The notes under the pieces: model-generated
The model's database searches: none
What the model saw: only the letters and a program-made list of their open reading frames with translations
What the model was told of the DNA's origin: nothing
Shown here: positions 680 to 42,093 of the stretch, in pieces
How positions within the stretch are numbered: the first letter of the stretch is position 1
How the letters are laid out: the number at the start of each line of letters is the position of its first letter
Made by a program: the position numbers and the translations under genes
Virus genome (UHGV): UHGV-0330108
Reading direction: 5' to 3' (one strand)
DNA: 42,810 nucleotides
Source: a virus

Positions 680-683
680 GAGT

Positions 684-1574: not shown

Positions 1575-1596
1575 GCCCTCTACGGAGGGCTTTTCT
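1575..1596 (+). terminator. putative rho-independent terminator (GCCCTC-TACG-GAGGGC + TTTT)
   Basis: 6-bp GC stem, tetraloop and T-run read directly; lies between the small-gene block and the terminase operon. Confidence 0.4.
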
Positions 1597-1690
1597 GTAC
1601 ATCCCGCCCAATCCCCCTATATAATCCCTTTAGACGCGTAGGGCGCGTCTGGTGCGCTCTGATGGTCAGACGCATATGTCAGGGGGTTAT

Positions 1691-2236
1691 ATGAAACTTA
1701 CACTTAAGCAACCATCACCTGAGGTGGTGCAAGCGGCACATGAAGAGGCTGTTAGCGCCAACCGTCGCCGTAAACGACCGCGCGGTAAACAGAGCCTTTA
1801 CCAGTCATCCCGTAATTCCGCCGCGTTGTGGGACCCGGACTATTGCGACGAATTGATTCGTTTCTTCGACCGCACGTCGTGGGAATTCGAGCTTACGCCG
1901 AAAGGTGAAAAACGCGCGCTTATGCAGGATAAACCGCCATCTCTGGTCCGATTCGCACTACACATAGGGGTGACTATCCCAATTATTAATCTGTGGCTGC
2001 GCGAGATTCCTGCATTTGCGGAAGCCTATGAAACCGCGAAAGCGCTTGAAGAGGCTTACTTCCTAGAAAACGGGGCTATCGGAATCTCGGCCAGATTCGC
2101 TGCCGCTAAGCTGGGCCTCGGCAAAGAGAAACCAGTTGAGTCCGCCGAAGAAACAGCACCGACTGAGATTATTTTCAGTGTTGCAGAGCCTGTAGGTAAA
2201 ATTGTAACAACTAACATGGGCGAGGTGGAGGAATGA
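1691..2236 (+). CDS. putative terminase small subunit
   Basis: ORF track frame 1652-2236; ATG at 1691 has AGGGGG upstream; basic stretch ANRRRKRPRGKQ; stop overlaps the large terminase start. Call is positional. Confidence 0.5.
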   Translation: MKLTLKQPSPEVVQAAHEEAVSANRRRKRPRGKQSLYQSSRNSAALWDPDYCDELIRFFDRTSWEFELTPKGEKRALMQDKPPSLVRFALHIGVTIPIINLWLREIPAFAEAYETAKALEEAYFLENGAIGISARFAAAKLGLGKEKPVESAEETAPTEIIFSVAEPVGKIVTTNMGEVEE

Positions 2237-3483
2237 GTATTCAGCTATCTGCACCACAGGCGTTGTTCCTGAACTGCGATAATAAATACAAGGCCTATGT
2301 CGGCGGCTTCGGCAGCGGCAAGACGTTTGTCGGCTGCCTTGACCTGCTTACGTTCATGCTCAAGCACCCCGGTACGCGCCTCGGCTACTTCGGCCCGACA
2401 TACCCGGCTATCCGCGACATCTTCTACCCGACATTCGAGGAAGCGGCTAACCTGCTCGGCCTTGATGTGCTGGTTAAATCCGGCGACAAAGAAGTCGTGG
2501 TTACTCGCGGTAAGACGGTGCTCGGAACTGTTATCTGCCGTTCTATGGACAACCCAGGCTCGATAGTCGGCTTCAAAATCGCCGCTGCTGTCGTGGATGA
2601 GCTGGACGTATTGAGCCGCGAGAAAGCCGAGTTGGCGTGGAACAAAATCGTAGCGCGTATGCGTCTTGTTATTCCTGGTGTAACCAACCACATCTCCGTT
2701 ACCACGACGCCGGAAGGGTTCAAGTTCGTTTACGCCAAGTTCAAAGAGAATCCGACACCGAGTTATTCAATGGTGCAGGCTTCCACTCACGAGAACGCGC
2801 GGTTCCTGCCGCCTGACTACATTAGTTCGCTGACCGAGACTTACCCCGCGCAACTGATTAACGCGTACCTGAACGGGGAGTTCGTCAACCTGACATCCGG
2901 CAGCGTGTACTACGCCTATGACCGCCGTAAGCATCGCAGCAAAGAGACAATTCAACCGGGTGACACGTTGTACATCGGGCAGGACTTCAACGTTACGAAG
3001 AACGCCAGCGCCGTGTATGTACAGCGTAAAGATGGCTGGCACGCGGTGGCGGAACTGAAGGGTCTGTTCGATACGCCAGACACCGTGCGTGTAATTACTG
3101 AGAAGTGGAAGTCCCAAGGACACCGCATCGTCGTTTACCCCGACGCCAGCGGCAAGAACCGCAAGACAAACTCGGCATCAATCTCAGATATCGCATTACT
3201 CCAGCAGGCCGGTTTTGATGTTCGCGCTAAATCGGCCAACCCTCCGGTTAAAGACCGTGTTTTAGCAGTGAATACCGCGCTGGAAAAAGGTAAGCTGTGG
3301 GTTAATGACCACTTATGCCCGGAGATAGCCAAGACGCTGGAGCAGCAGGCATACGACGATAACGGAGAGCCCGCTAAAGACGGCGTTATCGACCATATGG
3401 CGGATGCTCTCGGCTATCCTGTAGTTTACGAGATGCCGGTGGTTAAACCAGTAATCAACATCCCGGTGACTTTCGCACTTTAA
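2233..3483 (+). CDS. terminase large subunit
   Basis: Walker A-like YVGGFGSGKTFVGCL near the N-terminus; 416 aa; sits immediately upstream of the portal gene. Confidence 0.9.
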   Translation: MSIQLSAPQALFLNCDNKYKAYVGGFGSGKTFVGCLDLLTFMLKHPGTRLGYFGPTYPAIRDIFYPTFEEAANLLGLDVLVKSGDKEVVVTRGKTVLGTVICRSMDNPGSIVGFKIAAAVVDELDVLSREKAELAWNKIVARMRLVIPGVTNHISVTTTPEGFKFVYAKFKENPTPSYSMVQASTHENARFLPPDYISSLTETYPAQLINAYLNGEFVNLTSGSVYYAYDRRKHRSKETIQPGDTLYIGQDFNVTKNASAVYVQRKDGWHAVAELKGLFDTPDTVRVITEKWKSQGHRIVVYPDASGKNRKTNSASISDIALLQQAGFDVRAKSANPPVKDRVLAVNTALEKGKLWVNDHLCPEIAKTLEQQAYDDNGEPAKDGVIDHMADALGYPVVYEMPVVKPVINIPVTFAL

Positions 3484-3495
3484 GAGGATTATTCA

Positions 3496-4977
3496 ATGTT
3501 AACTATGAACGGTCAGAATCAGGGTGTTAAGACAAAACACCGGGAATGGCTGCATCACTTCAATAAATGGCAGAAGGTACGCCACGCGCTGGAAGGCGAC
3601 CTTATTCGCTATCTGCGCAACGTCGGGAAGAATGAGCCAGACCAGAAATACGCAGCCCAGCGCCAGGAAGAATACGAGAATGGTGCTATCTGCTACAACT
3701 TCACTAAACGTACCCTGGCGGGGATGGTTGGCAGTGTCATGCGCAAAGACCCCGAGCAGATTATCCCGCCTGAACTGGAGTACCTGTTGCGCAACGCCGA
3801 CGGTTCCGGTGTCGGGCTGTGGCAGCACGCGCAGGATACGCTAATGGAGATTGACTCGGTTGGTCGTGGCGGGTTGCTGGTGGACGCCCCGGAGACAGCC
3901 GCAGCAACGGCGGCAGAGCAGAACGCAGGGTTGTTAAACCCGGTCATCGCATTCTACACCGCAGAGAACATCATCAACTGGCGGCTGACACGCATCGGTT
4001 CAGTTAACCGCGTGACAATGGTCGTGTTGCGTGAGGTGTGGGAATACTCAGAACCGGGTGCAGAGTTCGAAACCAAGTTCGGTGAGCAATACCGCGTTCT
4101 TGATTTGATTGACGGGCGCTACCGCCAGCGCATTTACCGATTCGACGCCGAAGGCGGTGCGCAGAATGAAGTAATCGAAATATTCCCGGAACTTGGCGAA
4201 CAGTTACGCGGCAAAATCCCGTTCACGTTCATTGGCGCAAGCAACAACGACGCCACTATCGACGATGCGCCTTTGCTGCCGTTGGCTGAGCTCAATATCG
4301 GGCATTTCCGTAACAGTGCGGACAACGAGGAATCCAGCTTCGTTGTAGGCCAGCCTACTTTGTTCATCGCCCCTGGTGAGAACATGAGCATGGAGCAGTG
4401 GAAAGAGGCTAACCCGCACGGTGTGCGCATGGGGTCGCGTTCAGGCCATAACATTGGCTACGGCGGCAATGCGTTTCTGGTTCAGGCTGGGGAGAACAAC
4501 CTGGCCAAACAGAACATGCTGGATAAAGAGAATCAGGCAATCCAGATTGGCGCACAGCTTATCACCCCGACGCAGCAAATCACCGCGGAGTCAGCCCGCC
4601 TGCAACGTGGTGCTGATACTTCAGTTATGGCAACAATCGCACGTAACGTAAGCATGGCGTACACTGATGCGCTGCGCTGGGTGGCTGCGATGCTGGGGCT
4701 ACGTGAAGGCACCGAGGTTGAGTTCAAGCTGAATATGGAGTTCTTCCTGCAACCGATGACCGCGCAAGACCGAGCGCAGTGGATGGCGGATATTAACGCT
4801 GGCCTGCTACCAGCTACCGCTTATTATGCTGCGTTGCGTAAAGCTGGCGTAACTGACTGGACAGACGAGGACATTCAGAACGCTATCGAGGATGCACCAT
4901 TGCCGTTGAGGGCCGTTACCCAAGTGGCAGGAGAGATTCCGCAGTCGGCGCAGCAACAGGAAGCCACCCAGCAGTAA
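3496..4977 (+). CDS. portal protein
   Basis: 493 aa ORF directly after the large terminase, AAGAGGA RBS; position and size typical of portal proteins. Confidence 0.8.
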   Translation: MLTMNGQNQGVKTKHREWLHHFNKWQKVRHALEGDLIRYLRNVGKNEPDQKYAAQRQEEYENGAICYNFTKRTLAGMVGSVMRKDPEQIIPPELEYLLRNADGSGVGLWQHAQDTLMEIDSVGRGGLLVDAPETAAATAAEQNAGLLNPVIAFYTAENIINWRLTRIGSVNRVTMVVLREVWEYSEPGAEFETKFGEQYRVLDLIDGRYRQRIYRFDAEGGAQNEVIEIFPELGEQLRGKIPFTFIGASNNDATIDDAPLLPLAELNIGHFRNSADNEESSFVVGQPTLFIAPGENMSMEQWKEANPHGVRMGSRSGHNIGYGGNAFLVQAGENNLAKQNMLDKENQAIQIGAQLITPTQQITAESARLQRGADTSVMATIARNVSMAYTDALRWVAAMLGLREGTEVEFKLNMEFFLQPMTAQDRAQWMADINAGLLPATAYYAALRKAGVTDWTDEDIQNAIEDAPLPLRAVTQVAGEIPQSAQQQEATQQ

Positions 4978-4987
4978 GTTCACCTAT

Positions 4988-5009
4988 AGCCCCGAAAGGG
5001 GCTTTCTTA
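4988..5009 (+). terminator. hairpin / weak terminator between portal and head morphogenesis genes
   Basis: AGCCCC-GAAA-GGGGCT followed by TTCTTA. Confidence 0.35.
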
Positions 5010-5013
5010 TAGT

Positions 5014-6090
5014 ATGCTATTAACTTTAGCGCCACAGGGTTTATCTATGAGCTTACTTACATCACTAATCAGCCACCAGATATGGCTACAACGCACCGCT
5101 TCCGGCGAAGTGAAAGACCTCGCACCGTTTATTCAGGAGATGCGGGACGAAATCAAACGGCAGGTGTTGCTATTCGGTGACGACGACCGCAGCACCGCGC
5201 GACTGAATAAACTGTTACGTGACCTTGAAGAAGCACTGGCAGGACTTACAGGTGACTGGCAAACAAAGCTGACAGAAGACCTTAAGGAACTGGCGGCGTA
5301 TGAGGCTGAGTGGAACGTAAAGACGCTGACGGCTAACGTTAACGCTGAATTTGTTACGCCTACCGCTGAGCAGGTGTGGTCCGCTGCCGAGTTTCAACCC
5401 TTATCATTAAGCGACAAGCCTGTTGATTTCACGAAGCTGATGTCAGGTTGGGGTGAAACGGAAGTAGCACGTCTTGTAACAGGCGTTAAGATGGGCTTTG
5501 TTCAGGGCAAGACTACGCGGCAGATTGTTGCGGAAGTAGTCGGTAAAGGCGGGCTGGCTGACGTATCAGAGAAATACTCGGCTACGGTAATTCGCACCGC
5601 GCTATCACATGTGTCCAATGAAGCCCGTAACGAGACGTATCACCAGAACGACGACATCATCGAGAAGTACGAGTGGGTGTCAACGCTCGATAGCCGTACC
5701 AGTACGATTTGCAGAGCCAGGGACGGGATGACGTGGGAAATAGGTAAAGGCCCAATGCCGCCCGCCCATCCGAATTGCCGAAGCACCACTGCGCCTGTAA
5801 TCAGTTCCGAGTTCGACTTCCTCGATAAAGGTGCAAAACGGGCGGCTAAGGGTGCAGAAGGCGGTACTCAGGTAAGCGCGGACACCACCTATTACGAGTT
5901 CCTTAAACAACAACCGGCATGGTTTCAGGATGAAGCACTCGGGCCAACCCGCGGTAAGATTTTCCGTAACAGCGGTATATCACCGGAAGAGTTTCGCGTA
6001 ATATCTGTAGATGGTTTCGGGAACCCGCTCTCGCTTAAGCAGATGGCGGAACTCGATAAACGTGTTGCTGATTATCTGAAAGGGGATTAA
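5014..6090 (+). CDS. head morphogenesis protein (Mu F / SPP1 gp7-like minor head protein)
   Basis: Motif WVSTLDSRTSTICRARDGMTW...PPAHPNCRST matches the Mu F-family signature; follows the portal gene. Confidence 0.8.
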   Translation: MLLTLAPQGLSMSLLTSLISHQIWLQRTASGEVKDLAPFIQEMRDEIKRQVLLFGDDDRSTARLNKLLRDLEEALAGLTGDWQTKLTEDLKELAAYEAEWNVKTLTANVNAEFVTPTAEQVWSAAEFQPLSLSDKPVDFTKLMSGWGETEVARLVTGVKMGFVQGKTTRQIVAEVVGKGGLADVSEKYSATVIRTALSHVSNEARNETYHQNDDIIEKYEWVSTLDSRTSTICRARDGMTWEIGKGPMPPAHPNCRSTTAPVISSEFDFLDKGAKRAAKGAEGGTQVSADTTYYEFLKQQPAWFQDEALGPTRGKIFRNSGISPEEFRVISVDGFGNPLSLKQMAELDKRVADYLKGD

Positions 6091-6551
6091 TGATGGGCTT
6101 TTTCAAAGTAACTGACGTACCTTCGCGTCGCGTAGTCCAGTACGCCCGCGTGTCTGGCTCTGGCGAGAACGTGGTGTTTATCGAAGACGAAAGTGTACTC
6201 GGCTCACCGGTAGACGATATGCCGTTTGCGGATAAAACCGGTATTGCGTTGCCAGCGGCTGGTATGCTTTACGAGATTCCGTATCTGGCTGACGCTGGCG
6301 ATGTGTATTTCTCGGCGCAACCGCAGGACGCTGAACTGGCAGACGGCGGCGCAACTATCACCGTCGAAGTTAATGCAGGTAAAGCACCGTACGCGCTGAC
6401 CTGGTATAAAGACGGTAAGGAAGTGGTAAACGCCCCGGAAGAGGCTTTATCTCTGACGGTTAATTCAGTCGGCGAATACTTCGTCAAGGTTACCGATGCC
6501 GATGGTGTAGAGGCCGTAAGTAAAGCGGCGAAGGTTACGAAGCCAGAATGA
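6090..6551 (+). CDS. Ig-like domain protein (possible capsid decoration protein)
   Basis: C-terminal segment TVEVNAGKAPYALTWYKDGKEV...GEYFVKVTDADG is Ig-like; start ATGATG overlaps the previous stop. Confidence 0.5.
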   Translation: MMGFFKVTDVPSRRVVQYARVSGSGENVVFIEDESVLGSPVDDMPFADKTGIALPAAGMLYEIPYLADAGDVYFSAQPQDAELADGGATITVEVNAGKAPYALTWYKDGKEVVNAPEEALSLTVNSVGEYFVKVTDADGVEAVSKAAKVTKPE

Positions 6552-6554
6552 TAA

Positions 6555-6585
6555 AAGGCCCCTTACGGGGCCTTAGTTTTATTTG
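6555..6585. terminator. bidirectional rho-independent terminator
   Basis: AAGGCCCC-TTAC-GGGGCCTT flanked by an A-run upstream and AGTTTTATTT downstream, at a convergent gene junction. Confidence 0.55.
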
Positions 6586-6797
6586 AAGAATATCGCGAAT
6601 TTCTTGTAACCCGCTGGCTCGTTGCGCAGACCGTGTTCGTTAGCAAAACGTTGTATATTGTTAAAGTCATTTTCACCCATTCCGTCCGTATCGAACGTAA
6701 AGAAATTACGTTTGTTCCCGATAAGCACACGGCTTGTGATATCAATGCCGTAAAGTTCTTTGATGGCACGTACAACGTTTGCAGTAGCTTTGTTCAT
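6579..6797 (-). CDS. hypothetical protein (72 aa), isolated minus-strand gene
   Basis: ORF track frame 6579-6896; internal ATG at 6797 preceded by TAAGGAATTTGGAA; a TATAAT-containing 23-mer lies ~33 nt upstream. Confidence 0.5.
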   Translation of the reverse strand: MNKATANVVRAIKELYGIDITSRVLIGNKRNFFTFDTDGMGENDFNNIQRFANEHGLRNEPAGYKKFAIFFK

Positions 6798-6829
6798 TTC
6801 CAAATTCCTTATCTCTCGTTTCGATGTAA

Positions 6830-6852
6830 TGAATAGTACCCTATTATATTGG
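6830..6852 (-). promoter_or_regulatory. promoter/operator cassette TGAATAGTACCCTATTATATTGG (minus-strand TATAAT plus palindrome GAATAG-N4-CTATTA)
   Basis: Perfect TATAAT on the minus strand overlapping a 16-bp palindrome; the identical 23-mer recurs at 16043-16065. Confidence 0.45.
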
Positions 6853-6927
6853 TGTCTGCAAACTATTTGTTTACGTATTCCAGTTATTCCACTCAATTGT
6901 AAATGTTGGAATAAACTATTCGAATAG

Positions 6928-6956
6928 TTGACTTTTCACTAAAAATGTGCTAAGCT
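6928..6956 (+). promoter_or_regulatory. putative sigma70-like promoter (TTGACT-N17-TAAGCT, TG-extended) next to palindrome AACTATTCGAATAGTT
   Basis: -35 is a good match, -10 is weak; palindromic half-sites overlap the -35. Confidence 0.3.
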
Positions 6957-7180
6957 CCACCTGAGCTTGTGAAGTATGAACAAGCGACCGCGGCGCGGGC
7001 AGGTAACGGAGCGGGACGTAAGTCCTGAGTGTAGTTACGCTGACGCGTTCGGAAGGGCCATACTCTATTGCTTGTGTAAAAAGTAACTGGTTTACTGAGA
7101 TTACGCCGTTTCTATGTTTAAATGATAAGGACTAGCGCCCCGCTTTATGGCGGGGCTTTACTTATCGAGAAAGGAGAAAC

Positions 7181-7567
7181 ATGAATCTTAAAGCAACTGT
7201 CGTAGCTGGGGCGTGTTTCATCATCCTGGCTTACGCACACGGCATCTACCAGTATCGCACCGGCTGGAACGAAGGCCGGGCGAATCTCGTTTCGCGGCAA
7301 CAGCAGAAAGCACAGGCTGAGTTAGCGAAGAAAACACAACGGCAGCAGCAGGATGAATCAAAGGCCGCGGCCGCTGACAACGAAGGCAAGACGAAATCAG
7401 AGGTAATTACCCGTGAAGTCGTTAAGTACATTAGAACGCCTGGTCGCAGCGTGTGCACTTTCGATAATGCTCGCGTCCTGCTCAAGTCCCGCGCCGTCGC
7501 AAACGCCAATTCCATCCCCGGATACGACGATGATGCAGCCACCGTGCAAACTGGCAGCACCAAGTAG
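7181..7567 (+). CDS. putative i-spanin (Rz-like)
   Basis: N-terminal TM helix (ATVVAGACFIILAYAHGIY) then a charged, Q/A/K-rich periplasmic region; AAGGAG RBS; contains an embedded +1-frame lipoprotein ORF. Confidence 0.6.
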   Translation: MNLKATVVAGACFIILAYAHGIYQYRTGWNEGRANLVSRQQQKAQAELAKKTQRQQQDESKAAAADNEGKTKSEVITREVVKYIRTPGRSVCTFDNARVLLKSRAVANANSIPGYDDDAATVQTGSTK

Positions 7568-7676
7568 CGACGCTGACGAAGATTTAGCCATCGACGTTCA
7601 GAACGCCGAATGTGCACGGCAACTGAGGCTGAAAGTGTTCATGTTGCAGGATTACGTGAGGAATATTCTGGAATAG
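7413..7676 (+). CDS. putative o-spanin (Rz1-like lipoprotein), overlapping the i-spanin gene
   Basis: Signal peptide with lipobox LASC, then a proline-rich mature region (SPAPSQTPIPSPD...MMQPPC); starts inside 7181-7567 in another frame. Confidence 0.6.
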   Translation: MKSLSTLERLVAACALSIMLASCSSPAPSQTPIPSPDTTMMQPPCKLAAPSSDADEDLAIDVQNAECARQLRLKVFMLQDYVRNILE

Positions 7677-7758
7677 TTGCCTTGCATGTTGGAATAATTT
7701 ATTCTTGACATGTAAATCCGGGTGGCCCGGATTCCAACGTCCAGGGGACATACTGACT

Positions 7759-8463
7759 ATGAATCGTTTTTTACGTTATCCGTTCCAGGAAGAAGCTGGG
7801 GCAGAAGATAAATCTGGTGGCGGTGATGCGCCGAAAATGTTCACCGCTGAAGAAGTTCGGGCGCTGATTGAGAAAGAAGTTGCCGGGCTTAAGGCCAATC
7901 AGGAAGCATTACTGGCGGAGAAGAAAGAAGCCGCTCGTAAAGCAAAAGAGGCCGAAGAAGAACGGCAGCGCGCCCACCAGGAGGCGTTAAAAGCCGCTGG
8001 TAAAATGGACGAATTCGAAAAGACGATTCGTAGCCAGTATGACCCGGTGTTAGCCGAGAAAGATGGTCGCATCTCCAGAATGGCAGAGCGCATCCTCGGC
8101 AGCGAACGTAAAGCGGTGTTAGGCTCTTTCGCAGGTGACTTTATTACTCCGGAAGCAGTGGACATCCTCGCGCCGTTCGTTAAGACTGAGTTCGAAGGTG
8201 ATGACGTGGTTACTAAGTTTGTCGGCGCAGATGGCAATGTAATCACGACTGACCCGGAACAGTTCCGCAAATACTTGCGCGAACACAAAGCGTTTTCGCA
8301 TTTGATTAAAGCAAATGCAGCTTCCGGCGGCGGGGCTTCCGGTAGCAAAGGCGGCGGGGCCGCACCAGCGTTTAAAGACATGAGTGAAGCGGAGCGTATT
8401 GCTCTGTACGAATCGAACCCTGCCGAATTTGAACGGCAACTTAAAGCCCTGAGGAAAAAATAA
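7759..8463 (+). CDS. putative scaffolding protein
   Basis: ORF track frame 7705-8463, ATG at 7759; E/K/A-rich predicted coiled coil; immediately upstream of and coupled to the major capsid gene. Confidence 0.6.
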   Translation: MNRFLRYPFQEEAGAEDKSGGGDAPKMFTAEEVRALIEKEVAGLKANQEALLAEKKEAARKAKEAEEERQRAHQEALKAAGKMDEFEKTIRSQYDPVLAEKDGRISRMAERILGSERKAVLGSFAGDFITPEAVDILAPFVKTEFEGDDVVTKFVGADGNVITTDPEQFRKYLREHKAFSHLIKANAASGGGASGSKGGGAAPAFKDMSEAERIALYESNPAEFERQLKALRKK

Positions 8464-13916: not shown

Positions 13917-13950
13917 AACTAAGGCCCCAAACGGGGCCTTTTTCTTACTC
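13917..13950. terminator. bidirectional rho-independent terminator cassette
   Basis: AAAACT-AAGGCCCC-AAAC-GGGGCCTT-TTTTCTTACTC; the minus-strand gene's stop codon lies in the T-tract. Near-identical copy at 25239-25277. Confidence 0.65.
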
Positions 13951-16015: not shown

Positions 16016-16042
16016 TTTAAATCCCTCCATTGTTGGTGTGGG

Positions 16043-16065
16043 TGAATAGTACCCTATTATATTGG
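16043..16065 (-). promoter_or_regulatory. promoter/operator cassette TGAATAGTACCCTATTATATTGG, identical to 6830-6852
   Basis: Exact 23-mer repeat with minus-strand TATAAT and the palindrome, directly upstream of the island's first gene. Confidence 0.45.
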
Positions 16066-16181
16066 GGCGCGCAAGTAGTGTGCTAGAATAGGTTTGCGCC
16101 TAGTGTCGCACACGAAAAGCGGGTGGTTCCCGTCTGGCGCATCAACCTTAACCCGTAACCTCTTAACCAAAGGATTAAAGA

Positions 16182-25238: not shown

Positions 25239-25277
25239 AAAAAAACTAAGGCCCCAAACGGGGCCTTTTCTTTACTC
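25239..25277. terminator. bidirectional rho-independent terminator cassette
   Basis: A9-CT-AAGGCCCC-AAAC-GGGGCCTT-TTCTTTACTC; core identical to 13917-13950; contains the stop codon of a minus-strand small gene. Confidence 0.65.
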
Positions 25278-27341: not shown

Positions 27342-27653
27342 TCAATTCCTTATATTGTTGGTGCAGGGATAACTATAATAGTTCGCTATTAGGTCGTCAA
27401 CCTCTTCTTTTGTTCCTACTACAAAAACATTTGCGTCACGTTTACGAAGCCGTTTGTGTTCCCGCAACTGATGGGCCTCCGGTTCCGTGTTTTCGTCTTT
27501 CTTCACCTCGACGAACCATATAACCCCTCCAGGAAGGGCTACCAGCAGGTCAGGCGCTCCGTTTCTACCCTCATAAGACAGCTTACGAACGAGGCCACCA
27601 ATGGCCTCGAATTGCTCTTTTGCGTATTTCTGTATTTTTCCTTCCGGGGTCAT
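27342..27653 (-). CDS. VRR-NUC domain nuclease
   Basis: ORF track frame 27342-27668; ATG at 27653; motif GAPDLLVALPGGVIWFVEVKKDE fits the VRR-NUC/PD-(D/E)XK signature. Confidence 0.7.
   Translation of the reverse strand: MTPEGKIQKYAKEQFEAIGGLVRKLSYEGRNGAPDLLVALPGGVIWFVEVKKDENTEPEAHQLREHKRLRKRDANVFVVGTKEEVDDLIANYYSYPCTNNIRN
27372..27400 (-). promoter_or_regulatory. sigma70-like promoter (minus: TTGACG-N17-TATAGT) with palindrome TAATAGTTCGCTATTA in the spacer
   Basis: Read on the reverse complement; lies inside the 3' end of the VRR-NUC gene, upstream of 27045-27338. Confidence 0.55.
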
Positions 27654-30949: not shown

Positions 30950-30978
30950 ACTATAATAGTTAACTATTCAGGTGTCAA
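30950..30978 (-). promoter_or_regulatory. sigma70-like promoter (minus: TTGACA-N17-TATAGT) with perfect palindrome GAATAGTTAACTATTA in the spacer
   Basis: Consensus -35, near-consensus -10, 17-bp spacer; ~45 nt upstream of the ATG at 30896. Confidence 0.6.
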
Positions 30979-32997: not shown

Positions 32998-33453
32998 TTA
33001 TTCTTCTTCGAAATACTTGTTCTTGATTGCCGTCAGGCGTTCCAGATATTCAACCAGGTCTTCGTCTTTAATCGCGGCAATCTTCATCTTCTTACCGGTG
33101 AACTCTTCCAGCAGTTCATCGGAATCATCGCACGCGGCATCGCTTGGGCCTTCGTTAATCGCATCGTCGATAGCCTGAATCTGGTCACGCAGAGACTGAT
33201 AATCGACCTCTTCTTCCGGCTCTGGCGTTGGCTCCTCTACTTTAGCTTTACGCGGCTTGCGTTTTGGCTTCTCTTCTTCTTCTGCCGGTTTAGTGTCAAC
33301 GAGGTCTTCACCTTCGACCGGGATTTCTTTTGTTGCAACATTAGGCGTGATTGTTGCAGTTTCAGCAACGACAACCTGTTTTGCGCTGTTCGCGGCAATC
33401 AGTTCGTGCGCAACTACGAAACGTTCCAGTAATACTAAGAATTTCTCTAACAT
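32998..33453 (-). CDS. hypothetical acidic protein (151 aa)
   Basis: ORF track; GAGGAGAG RBS; first gene downstream of the promoter at 33486-33515. Confidence 0.5.
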   Translation of the reverse strand: MLEKFLVLLERFVVAHELIAANSAKQVVVAETATITPNVATKEIPVEGEDLVDTKPAEEEEKPKRKPRKAKVEEPTPEPEEEVDYQSLRDQIQAIDDAINEGPSDAACDDSDELLEEFTGKKMKIAAIKDEDLVEYLERLTAIKNKYFEEE

Positions 33454-33485
33454 TTTGTTTCTCTCCTCTCGTTTGGTATGGGCTA

Positions 33486-33515
33486 ACTATAATAGCGAAC
33501 TATTCATGTTGTCAA
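33486..33515 (-). promoter_or_regulatory. sigma70-like promoter (minus: TTGACA-N18-TATAGT) with palindrome GAATAGTTCGCTATTA
   Basis: Same architecture as 27372-27400 and 30950-30978; divergent from the XRE regulator gene. Confidence 0.55.
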
Positions 33516-33520
33516 TGGGC

Positions 33521-33549
33521 TTTTCTAAAATAATTAATATGGTACTATT
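33521..33549 (+). promoter_or_regulatory. putative promoter of the XRE regulator gene (-10 TACTAT within AATATGGTACTATTCA, weak -35)
   Basis: -10-like hexamer inside an operator-like half-palindrome, ~30 nt upstream of TAAGGAG. Confidence 0.35.
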
Positions 33550-33579
33550 CACATACCAACTGACTAAGGAGTAATTGAC

Positions 33580-33795
33580 ATGCAACCATCTGAACTAGGC
33601 ATCCGTGTAGAACAACGCCGCAAAGAACTTGGCATCTCCCAGCGCCGTCTGGCTGTCATGGCTGGCGTTTCCCAGGGCGCAATTAACCAGCTGGCACTTG
33701 GAGTAACTCAGGACGTCCGCCCGGCAACGCTGTTTAAACTGGCGGAAGTGCTTGAAGTAGACGCCAAGTGGCTGGCGTTCGGTGAAGGGGCTTAA
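33580..33795 (+). CDS. XRE-family HTH transcriptional regulator (Cro/CI-like, 71 aa)
   Basis: HTH segment ISQRRLAVMAGVSQGAINQLALG; TAAGGAG RBS; lone plus-strand gene with its own promoter and terminator. Confidence 0.75.
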   Translation: MQPSELGIRVEQRRKELGISQRRLAVMAGVSQGAINQLALGVTQDVRPATLFKLAEVLEVDAKWLAFGEGA

Positions 33796-33810
33796 CGCCC
33801 CTTTATTTTT
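33786..33810 (+). terminator. rho-independent terminator after the XRE regulator gene
   Basis: AGGGGC-TTAAC-GCCCCT followed by TTTATTTTT; the stop codon sits in the loop. Confidence 0.6.
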
Positions 33811-33812
33811 AC

Positions 33813-36083
33813 CTATTCCAAATCCTCCTCCGTCACCACCAGCATTTCATTCGGTTCGTATATTGTCTTCGGAATCTTGTTATCGTTTATACCCCACGGC
33901 AACCGGTATTGCTTAGGGATCGGCCTGTTGTTGTTATCCAGCCCAGAGACTATAACCCCAGCCTCGTGCATCTCTTCCAGTTTCTTTCGAAGGTCGTTAT
34001 TAGCGTTAATCGGTACGCCGTAACTATCTTCTTTCGCCGCTTTGACGATAGCAGACATAGAAAATCCTCGCTTGTCGTCGCCCTGCTCCTGCAATTTACC
34101 CAATGCGTAGATAACCGTAGCCTCTTTGGTATCCAGTTTCTCGAACTGACCTACCTTTTCTTTAACAGCCGCTTTACCTTCTTTAGTTAACCCTTCTTCC
34201 CGCTCTTTCTCCTCGTCAGTCTTAAACGGCTCAAAGCCCCACGGCATCAACACAAGCGCCTTATGCGGCTCAGGCAGGTCGAGGTTTACGATTATGCCGT
34301 ATTCCTCTGTACTACCCAGGAACTCAACCGCGCGGTATTCTTTCGGCGGCGGGGCTTCACGGAACTGTACCGACTCCAGCACCATGCCAACCGTCTTCTG
34401 CTGCGGCCCGTGCTTAAATTTTGAGTGGTATACGTTTATCTGTCGGTCGGTAGCGCGTTCGATTGTCAGTTCCACATCGACACCCGCATACAGAGCGCCG
34501 CTGCCACGGGCTTTCTTTCCGCCTTTCGGTGTGTGGTGAACGACGCCCACCGCGGCTTTAGTCGCGTCACGCACTTCTTTCAGGATGGCGATAACTTTAC
34601 CCATGCCGATTGCCGTTGATGAGCTGTTCTCGTCGAACTTATCAATAGTCAGTGCCAGGGTCTGGTTGAGGGTGTCAAACGCGACCATGCCGATTGGCTC
34701 GTCGCCAGCAGTTTCGCGCATTAACTTAATCAGGCTCTTCAGTTTGCCGACTTCACCCATGTCTATGACATGTATATAATCTTTACCTTCCGCGCCGTAT
34801 TTAGCCGCGAGCGCATCAATACGTGTACGTGTGGCTGCACCACCTTCACCGTCGATATAGAAATGGTGGCAACGCTGGGTGTCCGCCCCTGCGAAGCGAT
34901 AGCCTGCGGCGCTGAGGTACATCATCCCCAGCGTATAGAATGATTTGTACGTGCCTGATTCCCCGACGATATCCCAGATACAATCTGACGGCATGTACCC
35001 TTCTACGACGAAATCAGCCTTTACAGGTTCCGGTAGCTCGTCCTCCTCGGAGTCTTCGTCATCTTCCAGGTCGTCCAGGCTACACGAAACAGATTCACGC
35101 GCGCCCCATCCGATTGCCTCAGCAACTTCACTGAACGGCAGACCAGTCGCATCGCACGCATACTTCCACACCTCTTTCGGTGACATGCCCTCGGTTGCCG
35201 TAATGTCGGTGTCGTGGATCATGGTTACGTTAGGCGCTTCGTACCCTTCGCGCGGGAAGCACAGCAGGAAGTCATCCGGGCGCGGCGTAGGGTCGCTGTA
35301 GTTCTCTGCGTGCTCCGGTGTAGCGGGCATCTTAAGGCCGCGCGGCGTCATGACGCCACCATACTCAAACGCCAGTGCTTCGAACGCGTCCGTAAACGCG
35401 GTGCGCAGTTCTTCCGGTATCTGGTAATCCGATGCGCTGCTCACCTCGTAATCCGGTACGCCTTCCAGTAACTCTTCCGGGTCAATCAGGTCGTTGCGAC
35501 GCGACCAGATAACAGTAGCACCGACCGGCGGCAGATACATCGGCTGCGACAGAGTGAACCCGCTGCGGTCCGCACCCATGCCTTTGAAGAAGTGCTCAAG
35601 CAACCCATGACGAACGCGAATGATGTCACCACCTTCAACCGGGCGGGCCAGCGGCATGACGACACGAAAGCGAGGGGACTCGTCGGTATGCGATGCCGTG
35701 GTGTAGATGCACATCGCCCGGCGGCTGCGCTTAACCAGGCGCACAGCTTCCTGATACTCTTCCGGCGTTGCACTGTCGAAGTCCAGATACGCCAGCGACG
35801 ATTTGCTTACAGACGCATCGCAGCGATAGAAGAAACCTTTACGCGCTTCCTTAAAGTCACCGGTTTCCGGGTCTTTTACGGTGCTGTGTGTGGAGTCACA
35901 CGCGCCGGTGATGTAGCCCGGCGCGGTCTTCGGGTTAATCCCGTCACGAACGGCATCAAGCGGCTGGATTAACTCTTTCAGGTCGTCCAGTGTTGCCGTG
36001 TGTGTGGTTCTGACGTTTATATCCTTTTTCTCTGCCCGCGCGTTGCGACGAGACCACGAGTAGGATAAAATCACATCGGACAT
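33813..36083 (-). CDS. primase-helicase-like replication protein (RecA-fold ATPase with N-terminal primase-like region)
   Basis: Walker A-like VGESGTYKS, HFYIDGEGG and VVHHTPKGGKKARGSGALYAGVDVE; 756 aa. Confidence 0.7.
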   Translation of the reverse strand: MSDVILSYSWSRRNARAEKKDINVRTTHTATLDDLKELIQPLDAVRDGINPKTAPGYITGACDSTHSTVKDPETGDFKEARKGFFYRCDASVSKSSLAYLDFDSATPEEYQEAVRLVKRSRRAMCIYTTASHTDESPRFRVVMPLARPVEGGDIIRVRHGLLEHFFKGMGADRSGFTLSQPMYLPPVGATVIWSRRNDLIDPEELLEGVPDYEVSSASDYQIPEELRTAFTDAFEALAFEYGGVMTPRGLKMPATPEHAENYSDPTPRPDDFLLCFPREGYEAPNVTMIHDTDITATEGMSPKEVWKYACDATGLPFSEVAEAIGWGARESVSCSLDDLEDDEDSEEDELPEPVKADFVVEGYMPSDCIWDIVGESGTYKSFYTLGMMYLSAAGYRFAGADTQRCHHFYIDGEGGAATRTRIDALAAKYGAEGKDYIHVIDMGEVGKLKSLIKLMRETAGDEPIGMVAFDTLNQTLALTIDKFDENSSSTAIGMGKVIAILKEVRDATKAAVGVVHHTPKGGKKARGSGALYAGVDVELTIERATDRQINVYHSKFKHGPQQKTVGMVLESVQFREAPPPKEYRAVEFLGSTEEYGIIVNLDLPEPHKALVLMPWGFEPFKTDEEKEREEGLTKEGKAAVKEKVGQFEKLDTKEATVIYALGKLQEQGDDKRGFSMSAIVKAAKEDSYGVPINANNDLRKKLEEMHEAGVIVSGLDNNNRPIPKQYRLPWGINDNKIPKTIYEPNEMLVVTEEDLE

Positions 36084-36141: not shown

Positions 36142-36375
36142 TTATTCCAGGTCTTCTAAAGTAGCGGTCATTCCGCGAACTTCAGCAACGGCGCTATATT
36201 TCCCGCCAACGTTTTTCACGACACCGGATTTAACCAGTACACGTAACGACGCTTCAATAATGGCTGAACTATAGTACTTAAAATAACTACGGCGCAAGTC
36301 GATAACGCTGCACGACCCTTTTTTACGTGTTAACGAAACGACCGCCGTAAATACGCGTGACTGGAACTCGGTCAT
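36142..36375 (-). CDS. hypothetical protein (77 aa) with C-terminal LEDLE
   Basis: ORF track; coupled to the upstream HTH gene. Confidence 0.45.
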   Translation of the reverse strand: MTEFQSRVFTAVVSLTRKKGSCSVIDLRRSYFKYYSSAIIEASLRVLVKSGVVKNVGGKYSAVAEVRGMTATLEDLE

Positions 36376-36542
36376 TTCACGTTCTCCTTAATCCACGCTT
36401 CCACTTTCTCCGGGTCGAACGTACCCGGCTGACGGCGACCCATAATACGAATACAGCAATCCGGGAACTTCCCACTCTTTAACCAGTTATTCAGCGTACG
36501 GCGGGTAACCCCGATACGCTCCGCTACCTCATTCTGTGTCAT
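36372..36542 (-). CDS. small HTH DNA-binding protein (56 aa from MTQNEV...)
   Basis: ORF track frame 36372-36575 starts at TTG; ATG at 36542 has GAGGGT upstream; HTH-like EVAERIGVTRRTLNNWLKSGKFP. Confidence 0.55.
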   Translation of the reverse strand: MTQNEVAERIGVTRRTLNNWLKSGKFPDCCIRIMGRRQPGTFDPEKVEAWIKENVK

Positions 36543-36574
36543 TCTCAAACCCTCATTATCAGTTAACGAAACCA

Positions 36575-36603
36575 AGTATACATTGCGAATAATGGGAAAT
36601 CAA
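36575..36603 (-). promoter_or_regulatory. putative promoter of the minus-strand replication operon (TTGATT-N17-TATACT)
   Basis: Read on the reverse complement ~35 nt upstream of the ATG at 36542; coordinates approximate. Confidence 0.35.
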
Positions 36604-36983
36604 ACATAATTGCACCTATTGACATTATGAAAATCTTCGTTTAAGGTGCTTCTATATCTTAGTTACTTTGATTCCTGTTCACCTTGTAAAACCGCTTAAA
36701 ACGCAGCTGCGCGCAGCGCAAGCAAAGTGTTAAGCGCAAGTTTACTGAACATGAGAATTATCATAACTTTCCTCCCTAAGTATCTCCGGTTGCCCTGGGC
36801 AAGCTCTATTCCCATCGGCAGCATATCTCTTAAGTATCTGATTTTCTTAATGTGCCGTAGATTCACAACCGTAAAAATGTAACGATTATTGGGCAGGCTT
36901 AAGGCCTGCCCTTTAGTTACCAAGTAATAAGAATAAAGGCACAACCCTACCTGAAGAATCACAACGGCAACGTAACTATTCTC

Positions 36984-37012
36984 TTGCACATCCCAACATA
37001 ATAGGATACTAT
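36984..37012 (+). promoter_or_regulatory. putative promoter (TTGCAC-N17-TACTAT) with palindrome TAATAGGATACTATTC over the -10
   Basis: Same hexamers, spacing and operator placement as 38498-38526; ~35 nt upstream of the 37046 gene; coordinates approximate. Confidence 0.45.
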
Positions 37013-37045
37013 TCACTTATCGAAACAAGACAGAGGAGTGGGGGT

Positions 37046-37231: not shown

Positions 37232-37434
37232 TGGAAGAATTATTTGAAGAACTGAAACACCATAGACTGGAGAAAGTGCACTTCCAGGTAAACAGATACG
37301 AGGTTGTTTTATTAGACGGCCCAACTATTTCTTCCGGGACATGTGAGATCTTGTTAAAAGTTTTACGTGCGCTACGAACGGCATCGAATCATGATGCTCG
37401 TGCCGATGACTCTGAGGGAGGTTGCCGTGAATAA
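37228..37434 (+). CDS. hypothetical protein (68 aa)
   Basis: ORF track; start overlaps the upstream stop. Confidence 0.5.
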   Translation: MMEELFEELKHHRLEKVHFQVNRYEVVLLDGPTISSGTCEILLKVLRALRTASNHDARADDSEGGCRE

Positions 37435-37455
37435 TATTTTAATTGTGGGGGTGAT

Positions 37456-37650
37456 ATGAGTCAGTATAACCAATTTCGCTTACGCCGTCTGGTTGACGGT
37501 CTGCGCGCCGCCGAGTTTGTAGTTAAATGCTGGGAAAAGGCCGAGTGCACCTATATGGGGTCGTGGCATTTGGCTCATGCTAAGGCGGTAGCGCAATATC
37601 GCGAGTACAAGTTGAACAGTTTCCTTAAGCACCATGGGGTAGAGTTATGA
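37456..37650 (+). CDS. hypothetical protein (64 aa)
   Basis: ORF track; GTGGGGGTGA upstream of the ATG. Confidence 0.5.
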   Translation: MSQYNQFRLRRLVDGLRAAEFVVKCWEKAECTYMGSWHLAHAKAVAQYREYKLNSFLKHHGVEL

Positions 37651-38497: not shown

Positions 38498-38526
38498 TTG
38501 CACACTGATATAGAATAGGCTACTAT
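38498..38526 (+). promoter_or_regulatory. putative promoter (TTGCAC-N17-TACTAT) with palindrome GAATAGGCTACTATTC over the -10
   Basis: Same architecture as 36984-37012; ~30 nt upstream of GGGAGGAGAG and the ATG at 38558. Confidence 0.5.
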
Positions 38527-38557
38527 TCATTTACACAAATGGGAGGAGAGACAGAAG

Positions 38558-42042: not shown

Positions 42043-42064
42043 ATCTATTTTCTGTAATGACTAG

Positions 42065-42093
42065 TTGACTATTACCTACGACCCTACTATATT
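42065..42093 (+). promoter_or_regulatory. putative sigma70-like promoter (TTGACT-N17-TATATT)
   Basis: Good hexamers and spacing ~35 nt upstream of the 42127 gene. Confidence 0.5.

What the first reader, a model, noticed from the sequence alone, without database searches (positions are those of the whole stretch)
33486..33815. Self-contained regulator cassette: divergent promoters with palindromic operators flanking a Cro/CI-size XRE gene
A 71-aa XRE-family HTH gene (33580-33795) is the only plus-strand gene inside the minus-strand replication arm and has its own promoter and terminator. Back-to-back with it is a strong minus-strand promoter whose spacer carries the palindrome GAATAGTTCGCTATTA; the regulator's own promoter region carries a related half-palindrome over the -10. 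This looks like an autoregulated repressor switch in a genome with no integrase, which would be unusual for a lytic-type phage.
Basis: partly seen in the sequence, partly recalled or inferred. Interest (0 to 1): 0.7.

Follow-up and report, generated by a model that had tools for sequence, protein, structure and literature searches.

The report
Cro-like regulator with phage-wide operators
The small regulator gene and its two flanking palindromes are real. The palindrome is one of about ten copies of a 14-bp operator-like site that sits on nearly every promoter of this lytic phage, so this looks like a phage-wide Cro-type transcription throttle rather than a private lysogeny switch.

Summary
A 71-aa XRE/HTH_3 gene (33580-33795, +) is the only plus-strand gene in the minus-strand replication arm. 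It has its own RBS, an extended -10 promoter and a terminator. It lies back-to-back with a near-consensus minus-strand promoter whose spacer carries AATAG-N4-CTATT.

The interpretation needs correcting:
- The window is a Kagunavirus (Guernseyvirinae). More than 440 sequenced Kagunavirus and Jerseyvirus phages carry this gene, often annotated Cro, repressor or DicA.
- The cassette is not self-contained. The dyad occurs 11 times in the window against about 1 expected, and 10 of the 11 are intergenic.
- The sites overlap the -35, the spacer or the -10 of almost every promoter. Three different registers argue for occlusion by a repressor.
- Half-sites are invariant in 22 relatives while the centre and linker vary.
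- The closest solved relative is phage 434 Cro, whose operators have the same 14-bp layout.
- The motif family tracks the XRE gene in four lineages. It does not track the other small HTH protein (HTH_17), which is present in only two.
- I found no CI partner, integrase or partition gene, and no prophage copy in 5,426 E. coli genomes.

Most likely this is a Cro-like global repressor with weak autoregulation. Binding is untested. Novelty is modest: the motif was published before and misread as a phage-RNA-polymerase promoter.

The parts
33580..33795 (+). 71-aa XRE/HTH_3 regulator gene, 434-Cro-like
   Evidence: ORF. Pfam HTH_3 E=1.1e-12. PDB best match is 434 Cro at E=3.7e-7. AF2 model has five helices, and Foldseek returns 434 Cro, 434 cI and SinR. 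Orthologs are 94-99% identical in Kagunavirus and about 51% in Jerseyvirus.
33566..33571 (+). Shine-Dalgarno AAGGAG, 8 nt before the ATG
   Evidence: Read from the sequence. ACTAAGGAG is conserved in nearly all of the 46 distinct upstream regions.
33540..33548 (+). Putative promoter of the regulator: extended -10, TGgTACTAT, with no good -35
   Evidence: Read from the sequence. TACTAT is conserved in all Kagunavirus loci, including the 78%-identity XRE lineage, which has TGcTACTAT. Not called by the consensus scan. The TSS is inferred.
33536..33549 (.). Weak operator copy AATATGGTACTATT (1 mismatch) covering the regulator's own -10
   Evidence: The G-to-T change that weakens the half-site also creates the TGn extended -10.
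33491..33504 (.). Perfect operator copy AATAGCGAACTATT in the spacer of the divergent promoter (class A)
   Evidence: Both half-sites are invariant in 22 of 22 distinct Kagunavirus versions, while the centre has 7 variants and the linker 11.
33486..33515 (-). Strong sigma-70-type promoter of the 151-aa-to-exonuclease operon: TTGACA-N18-TATAGT
   Evidence: 11 of 12 matches. The -35 is invariant and the -10 is kept in 21 of 22 Kagunavirus versions. Jerseyvirus has TTGCAT with the same -10.
33785..33814 (+). Intrinsic terminator of the regulator gene: hairpin plus T-run on the + strand only
   Evidence: Annotated as a terminator in Shashou and Shelanagig. In Jerseyvirus a different G+C stem with a T-run sits at the same place.
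32998..33453 (-). First gene (151 aa, PHROG 3127, function unknown) of the operon under the class A promoter
   Evidence: It has no HTH domain.
30950..30978 (-). Class A promoter TTGACA-N17-TATAGT with perfect operator AATAGTTAACTATT (30955-30968), upstream of the SSB-like and DNA polymerase genes
27372..27400 (-). Class A promoter TTGACG-N17-TATAGT with perfect operator (27377-27390), upstream of the 97-aa gene and SNF2 helicase
6832..6861 (-). Class B promoter TTGCAG-N17-TACTAT. The perfect operator 6832-6845 covers the -10. Lies upstream of a 72-aa gene (PHROG 7673).
16045..16074 (-). Class B promoter TTGCGC-N17-TACTAT. The perfect operator 16045-16058 covers the -10. Lies upstream of the superinfection-immunity-like gene and a nuclease.
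36984..37013 (+). Class B promoter TTGCAC-N17-TACTAT with perfect operator 37000-37013, upstream of a plus-strand cluster of small genes
38498..38527 (+). Class B promoter TTGCAC-N17-TACTAT with perfect operator 38514-38527, upstream of the second small-gene and lysis cluster
42060..42093 (+). Class C promoter TTGACT-N17-TATATT. The one-mismatch operator ACTAGTTGACTATT (42060-42073) is centred on the -35. It follows a strong terminator and heads the operon that runs on toward the terminase.
   Evidence: The same arrangement is seen in L052, L053 and Shelanagig.
6923..6956 (+). Class C-like promoter TTGACT-N17-TAAGCT with the one-mismatch operator AATAGTTGACTTTT over the -35, upstream of the spanin, scaffold and capsid genes
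5008..5021 (.). Doubtful eleventh site TATAGTATGCTATT (1 mismatch) overlapping the start codon of the Mu-F-like gene. No promoter context.
   Evidence: It may be a chance match.
36575..36603 (-). Promoter TTGATT-N17-TATACT of the HTH_17-to-primase operon. It is the one conserved promoter without the dyad.
   Evidence: Conserved in Jerseyvirus.
36372..36542 (-). 56-aa HTH_17 (Cox/excisionase-like) gene, the rival candidate for binding the dyad
   Evidence: Pfam HTH_17 and PHROG 66. 82% identical to the Jerseyvirus ortholog. Absent from phiEap-2 and vB_STM-ZS, which still carry the motif family.

Best explanation
The 71-aa protein is a 434-Cro-type HTH regulator of a strictly lytic Kagunavirus. 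It most likely binds as a dimer to the 14-bp dyad (T/G)AATAG-N4-CTATT(A/C). That dyad overlaps a core element of nearly every sigma-70 promoter of the phage.

The sites fall into three registers:
- The spacer of three near-consensus replication-gene promoters (class A, including the one back-to-back with the regulator gene).
- The -10 of four promoters for small genes and morons (class B).
- The -35 of the two promoters that head the structural-gene side (class C).

Because the register differs while the site stays the same, the effect should be occlusion of RNA polymerase, that is, repression.

All seven perfect sites lie on replication, moron and small-gene promoters. The one-mismatch sites lie on the structural-side promoters and on the regulator's own promoter. 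As the protein accumulates it would therefore first throttle replication and small-gene transcription, and only at high level throttle late-side transcription and itself. The only conserved promoter without a site drives the HTH_17-primase operon.

What is shown here: the gene, its fold, the sites, their enrichment, their positions, their conservation, and their co-distribution with the XRE gene. What is inferred: that XRE is the protein that binds, that binding represses, and the temporal order.
For: - Family: HTH_3. The best PDB relative is 434 Cro, also 71 aa, at E=3.7e-7 and 40% identity. The AF2 model has five helices and matches 434 Cro, 434 cI, P22 c2 and SinR.
- Operator geometry: the nearest non-Guernseyvirinae relative inspected is the genuine Cro of lambdoid Klebsiella phage RothD. 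Its cI-cro intergenic region shows ACAA-N6-TTGT 14-bp dyads, the same geometry as AATA-N6-TATT.
- Enrichment: 11 sites against 0.97 expected in the window, 9 against 1.28 in Jerseyvirus, and 10 against 0.93 in phiEap-2. Ten of the 11 window sites are intergenic.
- Three registers relative to the -35 and -10 hexamers.
- Conservation: half-sites are invariant while the centre and linker vary. In pooled class A sites the half-sites carry more information than the -35 hexamer.
- Co-distribution: phiEap-2 and vB_STM-ZS lack HTH_17 but have an XRE-like gene divergent from the same operon. They still carry variant dyads at homologous promoters.
- DNA-binding helix: helix 3 and the following loop are invariant in XRE variants down to 78% identity.
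- Not RNA structure: the dyads form only weak hairpins, mostly 0 to -2.5 kcal/mol.
Against: - No binding or expression experiment exists for this protein.
- Kagunavirus and Jerseyvirus XREs are only about 52% identical. They differ at two of the three positions that contact bases in 434 (G/S and Q/H), yet their half-sites are the same.
- The HTH_17 protein is far better conserved (82%).
- The variant motifs in phiEap-2 and ZS are not perfectly symmetric (AATAG..GTATT, ATTAG..GTATT). The ZS enrichment is weak with up to 1 mismatch: 5 against 2.29 expected, reached by 9 of 100 shuffles.
- A repressor sitting on nearly all promoters, including those leading to structural genes, needs graded affinities to make biological sense, and that is unproven.
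- The only RNA-seq on a Kagunavirus is too coarse to help.
Confidence: 0.6

Rival explanations
1. The dyad is a real operator, but another protein binds it: the early 56-aa HTH_17 (Cox-like) protein, another phage HTH protein, or a host factor. The XRE protein would then have a different or only local role.
For: - HTH_17 is 82% identical between Kagunavirus and Jerseyvirus, which share the identical dyad. XRE is only 52% identical.
- HTH_17 is confined to exactly the two genera that have the perfect symmetric dyad.
- Its promoter is the only conserved one without a dyad, as expected for an upstream regulator.
- In coarse RNA-seq of a Kagunavirus, an HTH-domain gene, which I infer from gene order to be HTH_17, falls in the early class.
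Against: - phiEap-2 lacks HTH_17 but has 10 dyad-family sites against 0.93 expected. ZS also lacks it and has 3 perfect variant sites at promoters.
- From general knowledge, HTH_17/Cox/Xis-type proteins usually bind arrays of direct repeats, not 14-bp dyads.
- An early-made global repressor would shut off the phage's own replication genes at once.
- HTH_17 has no sites next to its own gene, whereas XRE is flanked by two.
Confidence: 0.17
2. The regulator is an immunity-type repressor that can silence the whole phage and hold it as a non-integrated episome (pseudolysogeny or carrier state), perhaps opposed by the Cox-like HTH_17. That would be a true switch in a phage without an integrase.
For: - One repressor site on almost every promoter is the pattern of temperate-phage immunity systems such as P1 C1, L5 stoperators and phiC31 CIRs (general knowledge).
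- The gene sits in the cI-like position: back-to-back with a PR-like promoter, with a strong site on that promoter and a weak site on its own.
- A paper reports turbid plaques, immune 'lysogens' and a possible episome for Jerseyvirus SGP-C (PMC8790156).
- A complete Kagunavirus-type genome is deposited as a 44-kb circular 'plasmid' of an E. coli blood isolate.
Against: - No hit in 5,426 complete E. coli genomes and only 1 of 72,556 plasmid records.
- No integrase, partition or plasmid-maintenance gene was found.
- The protein has no oligomerisation or cleavage domain.
- The primase-operon promoter has no site and could not be silenced.
- Relatives are described as lytic with no lysogeny-associated genes (PMC7203180, PMC9825357).
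Confidence: 0.1
3. This is the published reading. The repeated motif is a 'phage-specific promoter' used by a phage-encoded RNA polymerase or sigma factor, not an operator.
For: PHIRE found 7 copies of tgAATAGTa-ccTATTat-T in Kagunavirus fBC-Eco01, and the authors assigned them to a phage RNA polymerase (PMC9825357). The motif does coincide with promoters.
Against: - No RNA polymerase gene was found. The largest ORFs are the tape-measure protein, tail proteins, DNA polymerase and primase-helicase.
- The motif sits in three different registers and both orientations relative to canonical sigma-70 hexamers, which are themselves near consensus.
- The motif is two-fold symmetric.
Confidence: 0.03

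Closest known systems
Phage 434 Cro and its 14-bp operators (OR and OL)
   Same: - Same fold and the same length, 71 aa. It is the best PDB sequence match, at 40% identity.
- The operator is a 14-bp dyad with conserved outer bases and a variable centre. ACAA-N6-TTGT is seen directly in the 434-type phage RothD. Here it is AATA(G)-N4-(C)TATT.
- The Gln at the start of helix 3 and the outermost A of the half-site are both kept.
   Different: - 434 Cro acts at six sites in two operator regions and works against a CI repressor in a temperate phage.
- Here there is no CI, the phage is lytic, and about ten sites are spread over the whole genome.
- The gene is not the first gene of the rightward operon. 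It sits in the cI-like divergent position with its own terminator.
Lambda/434 OR region (back-to-back PR and PRM)
   Same: - Two back-to-back promoters with start sites inferred to be about 76 bp apart.
- A strong repressor site on the lytic promoter and a weak site over the regulator's own -10.
   Different: - Two sites 45 bp apart rather than three adjacent cooperative sites.
- No second repressor.
- No evidence of activation.
Dispersed operator systems of temperate phages: P1 C1 operators, mycobacteriophage L5 gp71 stoperators, phiC31 conserved inverted repeats (from general knowledge)
   Same: One short site recurs many times across the genome at or near promoters, giving a single protein control of most transcription.
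   Different: - Those repressors maintain lysogeny.
- L5 and P1 sites are asymmetric, and L5 sites also act within transcription units.
- Here the host phage is lytic and the protein is a bare 71-aa HTH domain.
Controller (C) proteins of restriction-modification systems (C.AhdI, C.BclI)
   Same: They are small XRE-fold dimers, among the Foldseek matches at TM about 0.73. From general knowledge, they bind dyads over promoter elements to time expression, with strong and weak sites giving delayed autoregulation.
   Different: C proteins control one bicistronic operon, not a genome-wide set. They act first as activators.
PHIRE 'phage promoters' reported for Kagunavirus fBC-Eco01 and Golestan
   Same: This is the same motif, tgAATAGTa-ccTATTat-T, with seven copies per genome (PMC9825357 for the consensus; PMC7203180 reports seven PHIRE promoters).
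   Different: Those papers treat it as a promoter for a phage RNA polymerase. Here it is shown to be a symmetric site overlaid on ordinary sigma-70 promoters in three registers.

Membership tests
XRE / HTH_3 (434 Cro-like) DNA-binding proteins | HTH_3 domain above the Pfam gathering score | tested here: met
   48.2 bits against a cutoff of 23, E=1.1e-12
XRE / HTH_3 (434 Cro-like) DNA-binding proteins | Five-helix lambda-repressor-like fold | tested here: met
   AF2 model with helices 5-17, 21-28, 32-39, 48-57 and 62-66, pLDDT 79. Foldseek TM 0.73-0.81 to SinR, 434 cI, 434 Cro and P22 c2.
XRE / HTH_3 (434 Cro-like) DNA-binding proteins | Sequence homology to 434 Cro or cI | tested here: met
   phmmer E=3.7e-7 to 434 Cro and 8.8e-6 to 434 repressor. 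40% identity in the alignment.
XRE / HTH_3 (434 Cro-like) DNA-binding proteins | Binds a dyad operator as a dimer | not testable with these tools
   Indirect only: 14-bp dyads of matching geometry flank the gene and recur genome-wide.
Lambdoid CI/Cro lysis-lysogeny switch | Two antagonistic repressors transcribed divergently from a shared operator region | tested here: not met
   The divergent gene (151 aa) has no HTH or Pfam hit. No CI-like gene appears in the window or in annotated relatives.
Lambdoid CI/Cro lysis-lysogeny switch | Repressor with a C-terminal oligomerisation or S24 cleavage domain | tested here: not met
   The protein is 71 aa and consists of the HTH domain only.
Lambdoid CI/Cro lysis-lysogeny switch | Means of prophage maintenance (integrase or partition system) | tested here: not met
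   None in the Pfam and PHROG scans of the ORFs tested here, which did not cover every ORF. None annotated in the complete genome of the relative Shelanagig.
Lambdoid CI/Cro lysis-lysogeny switch | Found as a prophage in host genomes | tested here: not met
   0 matches in 5,426 complete E. coli genomes. One 44-kb 'plasmid' record in PLSDB.
Genome-wide single-repressor operator networks (P1 C1, L5 gp71, phiC31 c) | Many dispersed copies of one site, far above chance, at promoters | tested here: met
   11 against 0.97 expected. Ten intergenic. All overlap promoter hexamers.
Genome-wide single-repressor operator networks (P1 C1, L5 gp71, phiC31 c) | Sites bound by the phage's immunity repressor in a lysogen | not testable with these tools
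   No lysogenic state is established for this group. The only claim is PMC8790156.
Phage-RNA-polymerase-specific promoters (published reading of the motif) | Phage encodes its own RNA polymerase or sigma factor | tested here: not met
   No RNA polymerase or sigma hit among the ORFs scanned, and the largest ORFs are accounted for by synteny and annotation as tape-measure, tail, DNA polymerase and primase-helicase genes.
Phage-RNA-polymerase-specific promoters (published reading of the motif) | Motif at a fixed position and orientation relative to the start site | tested here: not met
   Three registers (over the -35, in the spacer, over the -10) and both orientations relative to sigma-70 hexamers.

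The most novel reading that the evidence does not exclude
Guernseyvirinae are used as 'strictly lytic' therapy and biocontrol phages. They may carry a complete immunity-style network, in which one Cro-size repressor has operators on all promoters except the primase operon. Such a network could hold the genome silent as a non-integrated episome (carrier state or pseudolysogeny) and confer superinfection immunity. That would explain the turbid plaques and immune clones reported for SGP-C, and the Kagunavirus genome deposited as an E. coli 'plasmid'.
Probability: 0.1. Interest if true: 0.7.

Novelty: new member of a known kind. Interest (0 to 1): 0.42.

Why it matters
Kagunavirus and Jerseyvirus phages are isolated very often and are promoted for therapy and food biocontrol because they are lytic, yet many records carry a gene labelled 'repressor'.

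The analysis shows that this gene is probably a Cro-type global throttle with about ten operators. It does not look like the remnant or core of a lysogeny switch. That reading gives a concrete, testable model of how these phages programme transcription using only host RNA polymerase. It also corrects a published assignment of the motif to a non-existent phage RNA polymerase.

The analysis further defines a compact set of parts for synthetic phage work: three promoter classes and one 14-bp operator. If the minority reading (an episomal carrier state) were true, it would bear on the safety classification of these phages.

Tried and rejected
- Chance palindrome: rejected by genome-wide enrichment and intergenic placement.
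- RNA hairpin or structured RNA: the dyads fold weakly, mostly 0 to -2.5 kcal/mol. There are no Rfam families or tRNAs in the window.
- Phage-RNAP promoter: rejected, see the rival explanations.
- Phylogenetic profile to decide between XRE and HTH_17. Adding phiEap-2 and re-scanning ZS with variant patterns reversed this.
- Search for an XRE homolog with the same recognition helix in an unrelated context, as an independent test of the protein-site link. The word-indexed search returned only Kagunavirus proteins. The exhaustive representative search was swamped by multi-HTH proteins. No usable case was found.
- Published RNA-seq of Kagunavirus K1B4. Sampling was at 5-120 min over several infection cycles, and 42 of 57 genes were classed 'middle'. 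It is not informative about the regulator.
- CM001 engineering paper and the BASEL paper: nothing on this gene.
- HTH_17 against PDB sequences: no significant match.


Full report
**What the window is.** The 1.2 kb around the finding is 90-94% identical to Raoultella phage RP180 and to many E. coli K1 and UTI phages of the genus Kagunavirus (Guernseyvirinae). It matches 446 phage records in all, including Salmonella Jerseyviruses. Gene order is collinear with annotated relatives:
- packaging, head and tail genes on the + strand;
- a minus-strand replication arm with SNF2 helicase, DNA polymerase I, SSB-like protein, DUF2800 exonuclease and primase-helicase;
- then plus-strand small genes and lysis genes.

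The Pfam and PHROG scans of the ORFs tested here found no integrase, partition gene or RNA polymerase. There are no Rfam families or tRNAs.

**Checking the observation.**
- ORF 33580-33795 (+) encodes 71 aa with a clear HTH_3 domain. AAGGAG lies 8 nt before the ATG.
- It is the only plus-strand gene in the replication arm, here and in relatives.
- A hairpin with a T-run (33785-33804) overlaps the stop codon. It is annotated as a terminator in Shashou and Shelanagig. In Jerseyvirus a different G+C stem followed by a T-run occupies the same place.
- The minus-strand promoter TTGACA-N18-TATAGT (33515..33486) scores 11 of 12 and was the top hit of the scan. Its spacer holds AATAGCGAACTATT (33491-33504).
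- The regulator's own upstream region holds AATATGGTACTATT (33536-33549). TACTAT is preceded by TGg, so this is an extended -10 promoter. The consensus scan missed it because there is no -35.

**The palindrome is not private to this cassette.** AATAGN4CTATT with up to 1 mismatch occurs 11 times in the window against 0.97 expected, and none of 100 shuffles reached 11. Seven copies are perfect. Ten of the 11 lie entirely in the roughly 11% of sequence that is non-coding.

Each site overlaps a promoter, in one of three registers:
- Class A (27377, 30955, 33491; minus strand): TTGAC(A/G)-N4/5-AATAGnnnnCTATT-ATAGT. The site fills the spacer of a near-consensus promoter.
- Class B (6832-, 16045-, 37000+, 38514+): TTGCnn-N17-TACTAT. 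The -10 is the inner part of the right half-site.
- Class C (42060+, 6923+): the site is centred on a TTGACT -35.

The site at 33536 on the regulator's promoter is a class B site with one G-to-T change. That single change creates the TGn extended -10 and weakens the half-site. It is conserved in every Kagunavirus locus examined, including a lineage whose XRE is only 78% identical. The site at 5008 has no promoter context and may be a chance match.

The one conserved promoter without a site is TTGATT-N17-TATACT (36603..36575), which drives the HTH_17-p77-primase operon.

**Is the dyad a protein-binding site?** Several results say yes.
- In 22 distinct Kagunavirus versions of the 33491 region, both half-sites are invariant. 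The four central bases have seven variants, and the linker to the -35 has eleven variants, including a length change.
- Pooling sites from 48 IMG/VR loci and the other Kagunavirus and Jerseyvirus sequences held then, the half-sites carry more information than the -35 hexamer. In class B the upstream half (AATAG at about -19 to -15) is nearly invariant, although sigma-70 makes no base-specific demand there.
- Both halves are equally conserved, so the site is two-fold symmetric.
- As RNA or DNA hairpins the sites are negligible.
- One symmetric site sits at three different offsets and in both orientations relative to ordinary -35 and -10 hexamers. This fits steric occlusion by a dimeric repressor. 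It does not fit an activator, a sigma-specific element, or the 'phage RNA polymerase promoter' reading published for fBC-Eco01, where PHIRE reported seven copies of tgAATAGTa-ccTATTat-T (PMC9825357).

**Which protein binds?** There are two small DNA-binding proteins near the sites: the XRE protein and a 56-aa HTH_17 (Cox/excisionase-like) protein that heads the primase operon.

Evidence for XRE:
- Its best solved relative is 434 Cro, which has the same length (E=3.7e-7, 40% identity).
- The AF2 model is the five-helix fold.
- The closest homolog I inspected outside the subfamily is the genuine Cro of the lambdoid Klebsiella phage RothD. Its cI-cro intergenic region shows ACAA-N6-TTGT 14-bp dyads, the same 4-6-4 geometry as AATA-N6-TATT.
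- The Gln at the start of helix 3 is conserved from 434 to all four Guernseyvirinae lineages (the phiEap-2 sequence is).
- Helix 3 and the following loop are invariant among XRE variants down to 78% identity.

Evidence that at first favoured HTH_17: it is 82% identical between the two genera that share the dyad, against 52% for XRE. It is also missing from vB_STM-ZS, which has no AATAG-N4-CTATT site.

Adding a fourth lineage reversed that picture. phiEap-2 has no HTH_17 but has 10 dyad-family sites against 0.93 expected, at the homologous promoters. Re-scanning ZS shows three perfect ATTAG-N4-GTATT sites and two one-mismatch sites, all at promoter-like positions. So the motif family follows the XRE-like gene in 4 of 4 lineages and HTH_17 in 2 of 4.

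In phiEap-2 and ZS the XRE gene heads the primase operon and is divergent from the same 151-aa operon. The Kagunavirus and Jerseyvirus layout therefore looks like an inversion of the primase segment, which left the XRE gene alone with its own terminator.

One caveat remains. Kagunavirus and Jerseyvirus XREs differ at two of the three 434-type base-contact positions yet have the same half-site. Binding is not demonstrated.

**Most likely mechanism (inferred).** Host RNA polymerase fires all phage promoters on entry. The XRE protein is made from its own extended -10 promoter and accumulates. It first occupies the seven perfect sites, which throttles the replication, moron and small-gene operons. 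The one-mismatch sites on the structural-side promoters (42060, 6923) and on its own promoter are occupied only at higher levels, giving late and weak autoregulation.

Locally, the two sites are 45 bp apart. They sit at about -18.5 and -63.5 relative to the P151 start, and at about -57.5 and -12.5 relative to the P_xre start, as inferred from the hexamers. The A/T-rich stretch 33519-33539 could act as an UP element for P151 while overlapping P_xre, so the two promoters may compete. Because the terminator is one-directional, primase-operon transcripts probably read antisense through the regulator gene. Both points are speculative.

**Is it a lysogeny-type switch?** The defining features are not met.
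- There is no second repressor and no CI-type C-terminal domain.
- I found no integrase or partition function.
- There are no copies in 5,426 complete E. coli genomes.
- Relatives are described as lytic with no lysogeny-associated genes (PMC7203180, PMC9825357).

Two observations keep a minority reading alive. A paper reports turbid plaques, immune clones and a possible episome for Jerseyvirus SGP-C, and calls these same two genes Cro and cI (PMC8790156). A complete Kagunavirus-type genome is also deposited as a 44-kb circular 'plasmid' of an E. coli blood isolate.

**Novelty and score.** Several elements were already in the public record: the gene and its Cro or repressor label, the motif (as PHIRE 'promoters'), and even the Cro/cI speculation. 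The analysis here adds three things:
- the motif is a symmetric 434-geometry operator laid over ordinary sigma-70 promoters in three registers;
- it forms a regulon of about ten sites that includes the regulator's own promoter;
- it co-distributes with the XRE gene, not with HTH_17.

That makes this a new member of a known kind, a Cro-type lytic regulator that is unusually global. The interest is moderate and practical rather than conceptual.

Noticed in passing
PLSDB record CP088689.1 (L054 covers bases 1-8354 of it): A complete, circular 44,086-bp Kagunavirus-type genome (XRE, primase-helicase, HTH_17, DNA polymerase) is deposited as 'plasmid pC16EC0033-2' of an E. coli blood isolate. It is the only such record among 72,556 plasmids. 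It could reflect a carrier state or a contaminating phage.
   Followed up: partly
window 33470-33480, 33552-33559, 16020-16030, 27345-27355; also 37018-37026 and 6812-6820: Two short words recur in the inferred 5' UTRs just downstream of the -10 of dyad promoters: (A/C)(C/T)ACCAAC(A/T) and ATCGAAAC(G/A)AGA. The first is also present at homologous promoters of vB_STM-ZS. Their function is unknown; they could be a leader element or part of the initial transcribed sequence.
   Followed up: no
window 6913-6926: An 'everted' perfect palindrome ACTATTCGAATAGT (CTATT-CG-AATAG) directly abuts the class C site at 6923. The half-sites here occur in the opposite relative order.
   Followed up: no
L002 (Shelanagig) 36442-36471: In Jerseyvirus the dyad upstream of the plus-strand small-gene cluster lies in the core of a perfect palindrome with 13-bp arms, CCTGTAATAATAG-TACT-CTATTATTACAGG.
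   Followed up: no
window 36372-36575: The HTH_17 ORF is listed from a TTG at 36575, but it probably starts at the ATG at 36542 (56 aa). Several relatives align only from residues 9-12. The TTGATT-N17-TATACT promoter and a GAGGG Shine-Dalgarno sequence would otherwise fall inside the gene.
   Followed up: partly
window 33785-33814: The regulator's terminator has a T-run on the + strand only, and no minus-strand terminator follows the primase gene. Primase-operon transcripts therefore probably run antisense across the regulator gene, giving convergent transcription.
   Followed up: no
window 6555-6574, 13921-13940, 25248-25267: Three near-identical bidirectional terminator hairpins, AAGGCCCC-N4-GGGGCCTT, mark the points where plus-strand and minus-strand transcription units converge.
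   Followed up: no
L003 (vB_STM-ZS) 7054-7275 and L055 (phiEap-2) 37244-37465: In these unclassified Guernseyvirinae the XRE gene is the first gene of the primase operon and there is no HTH_17. The Kagunavirus and Jerseyvirus layout looks like an inversion of the primase segment together with gain of HTH_17 and a new promoter.
   Followed up: partly
Literature: PMC9825357 and PMC8790156: The fBC-Eco01 paper assigns the dyad motif to a 'phage-encoded RNA polymerase', which these genomes do not encode. The SGP-C paper calls a Jerseyvirus temperate, largely because of this 'repressor' gene.
   Followed up: partly
window 36975-36981, about 16081-16088, 42045-42050: Extra isolated half-sites (ACTATTC, CCTATTCT, CTATTT) lie 20-35 bp upstream of several full dyads. 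They may be auxiliary sites or chance matches.
   Followed up: no
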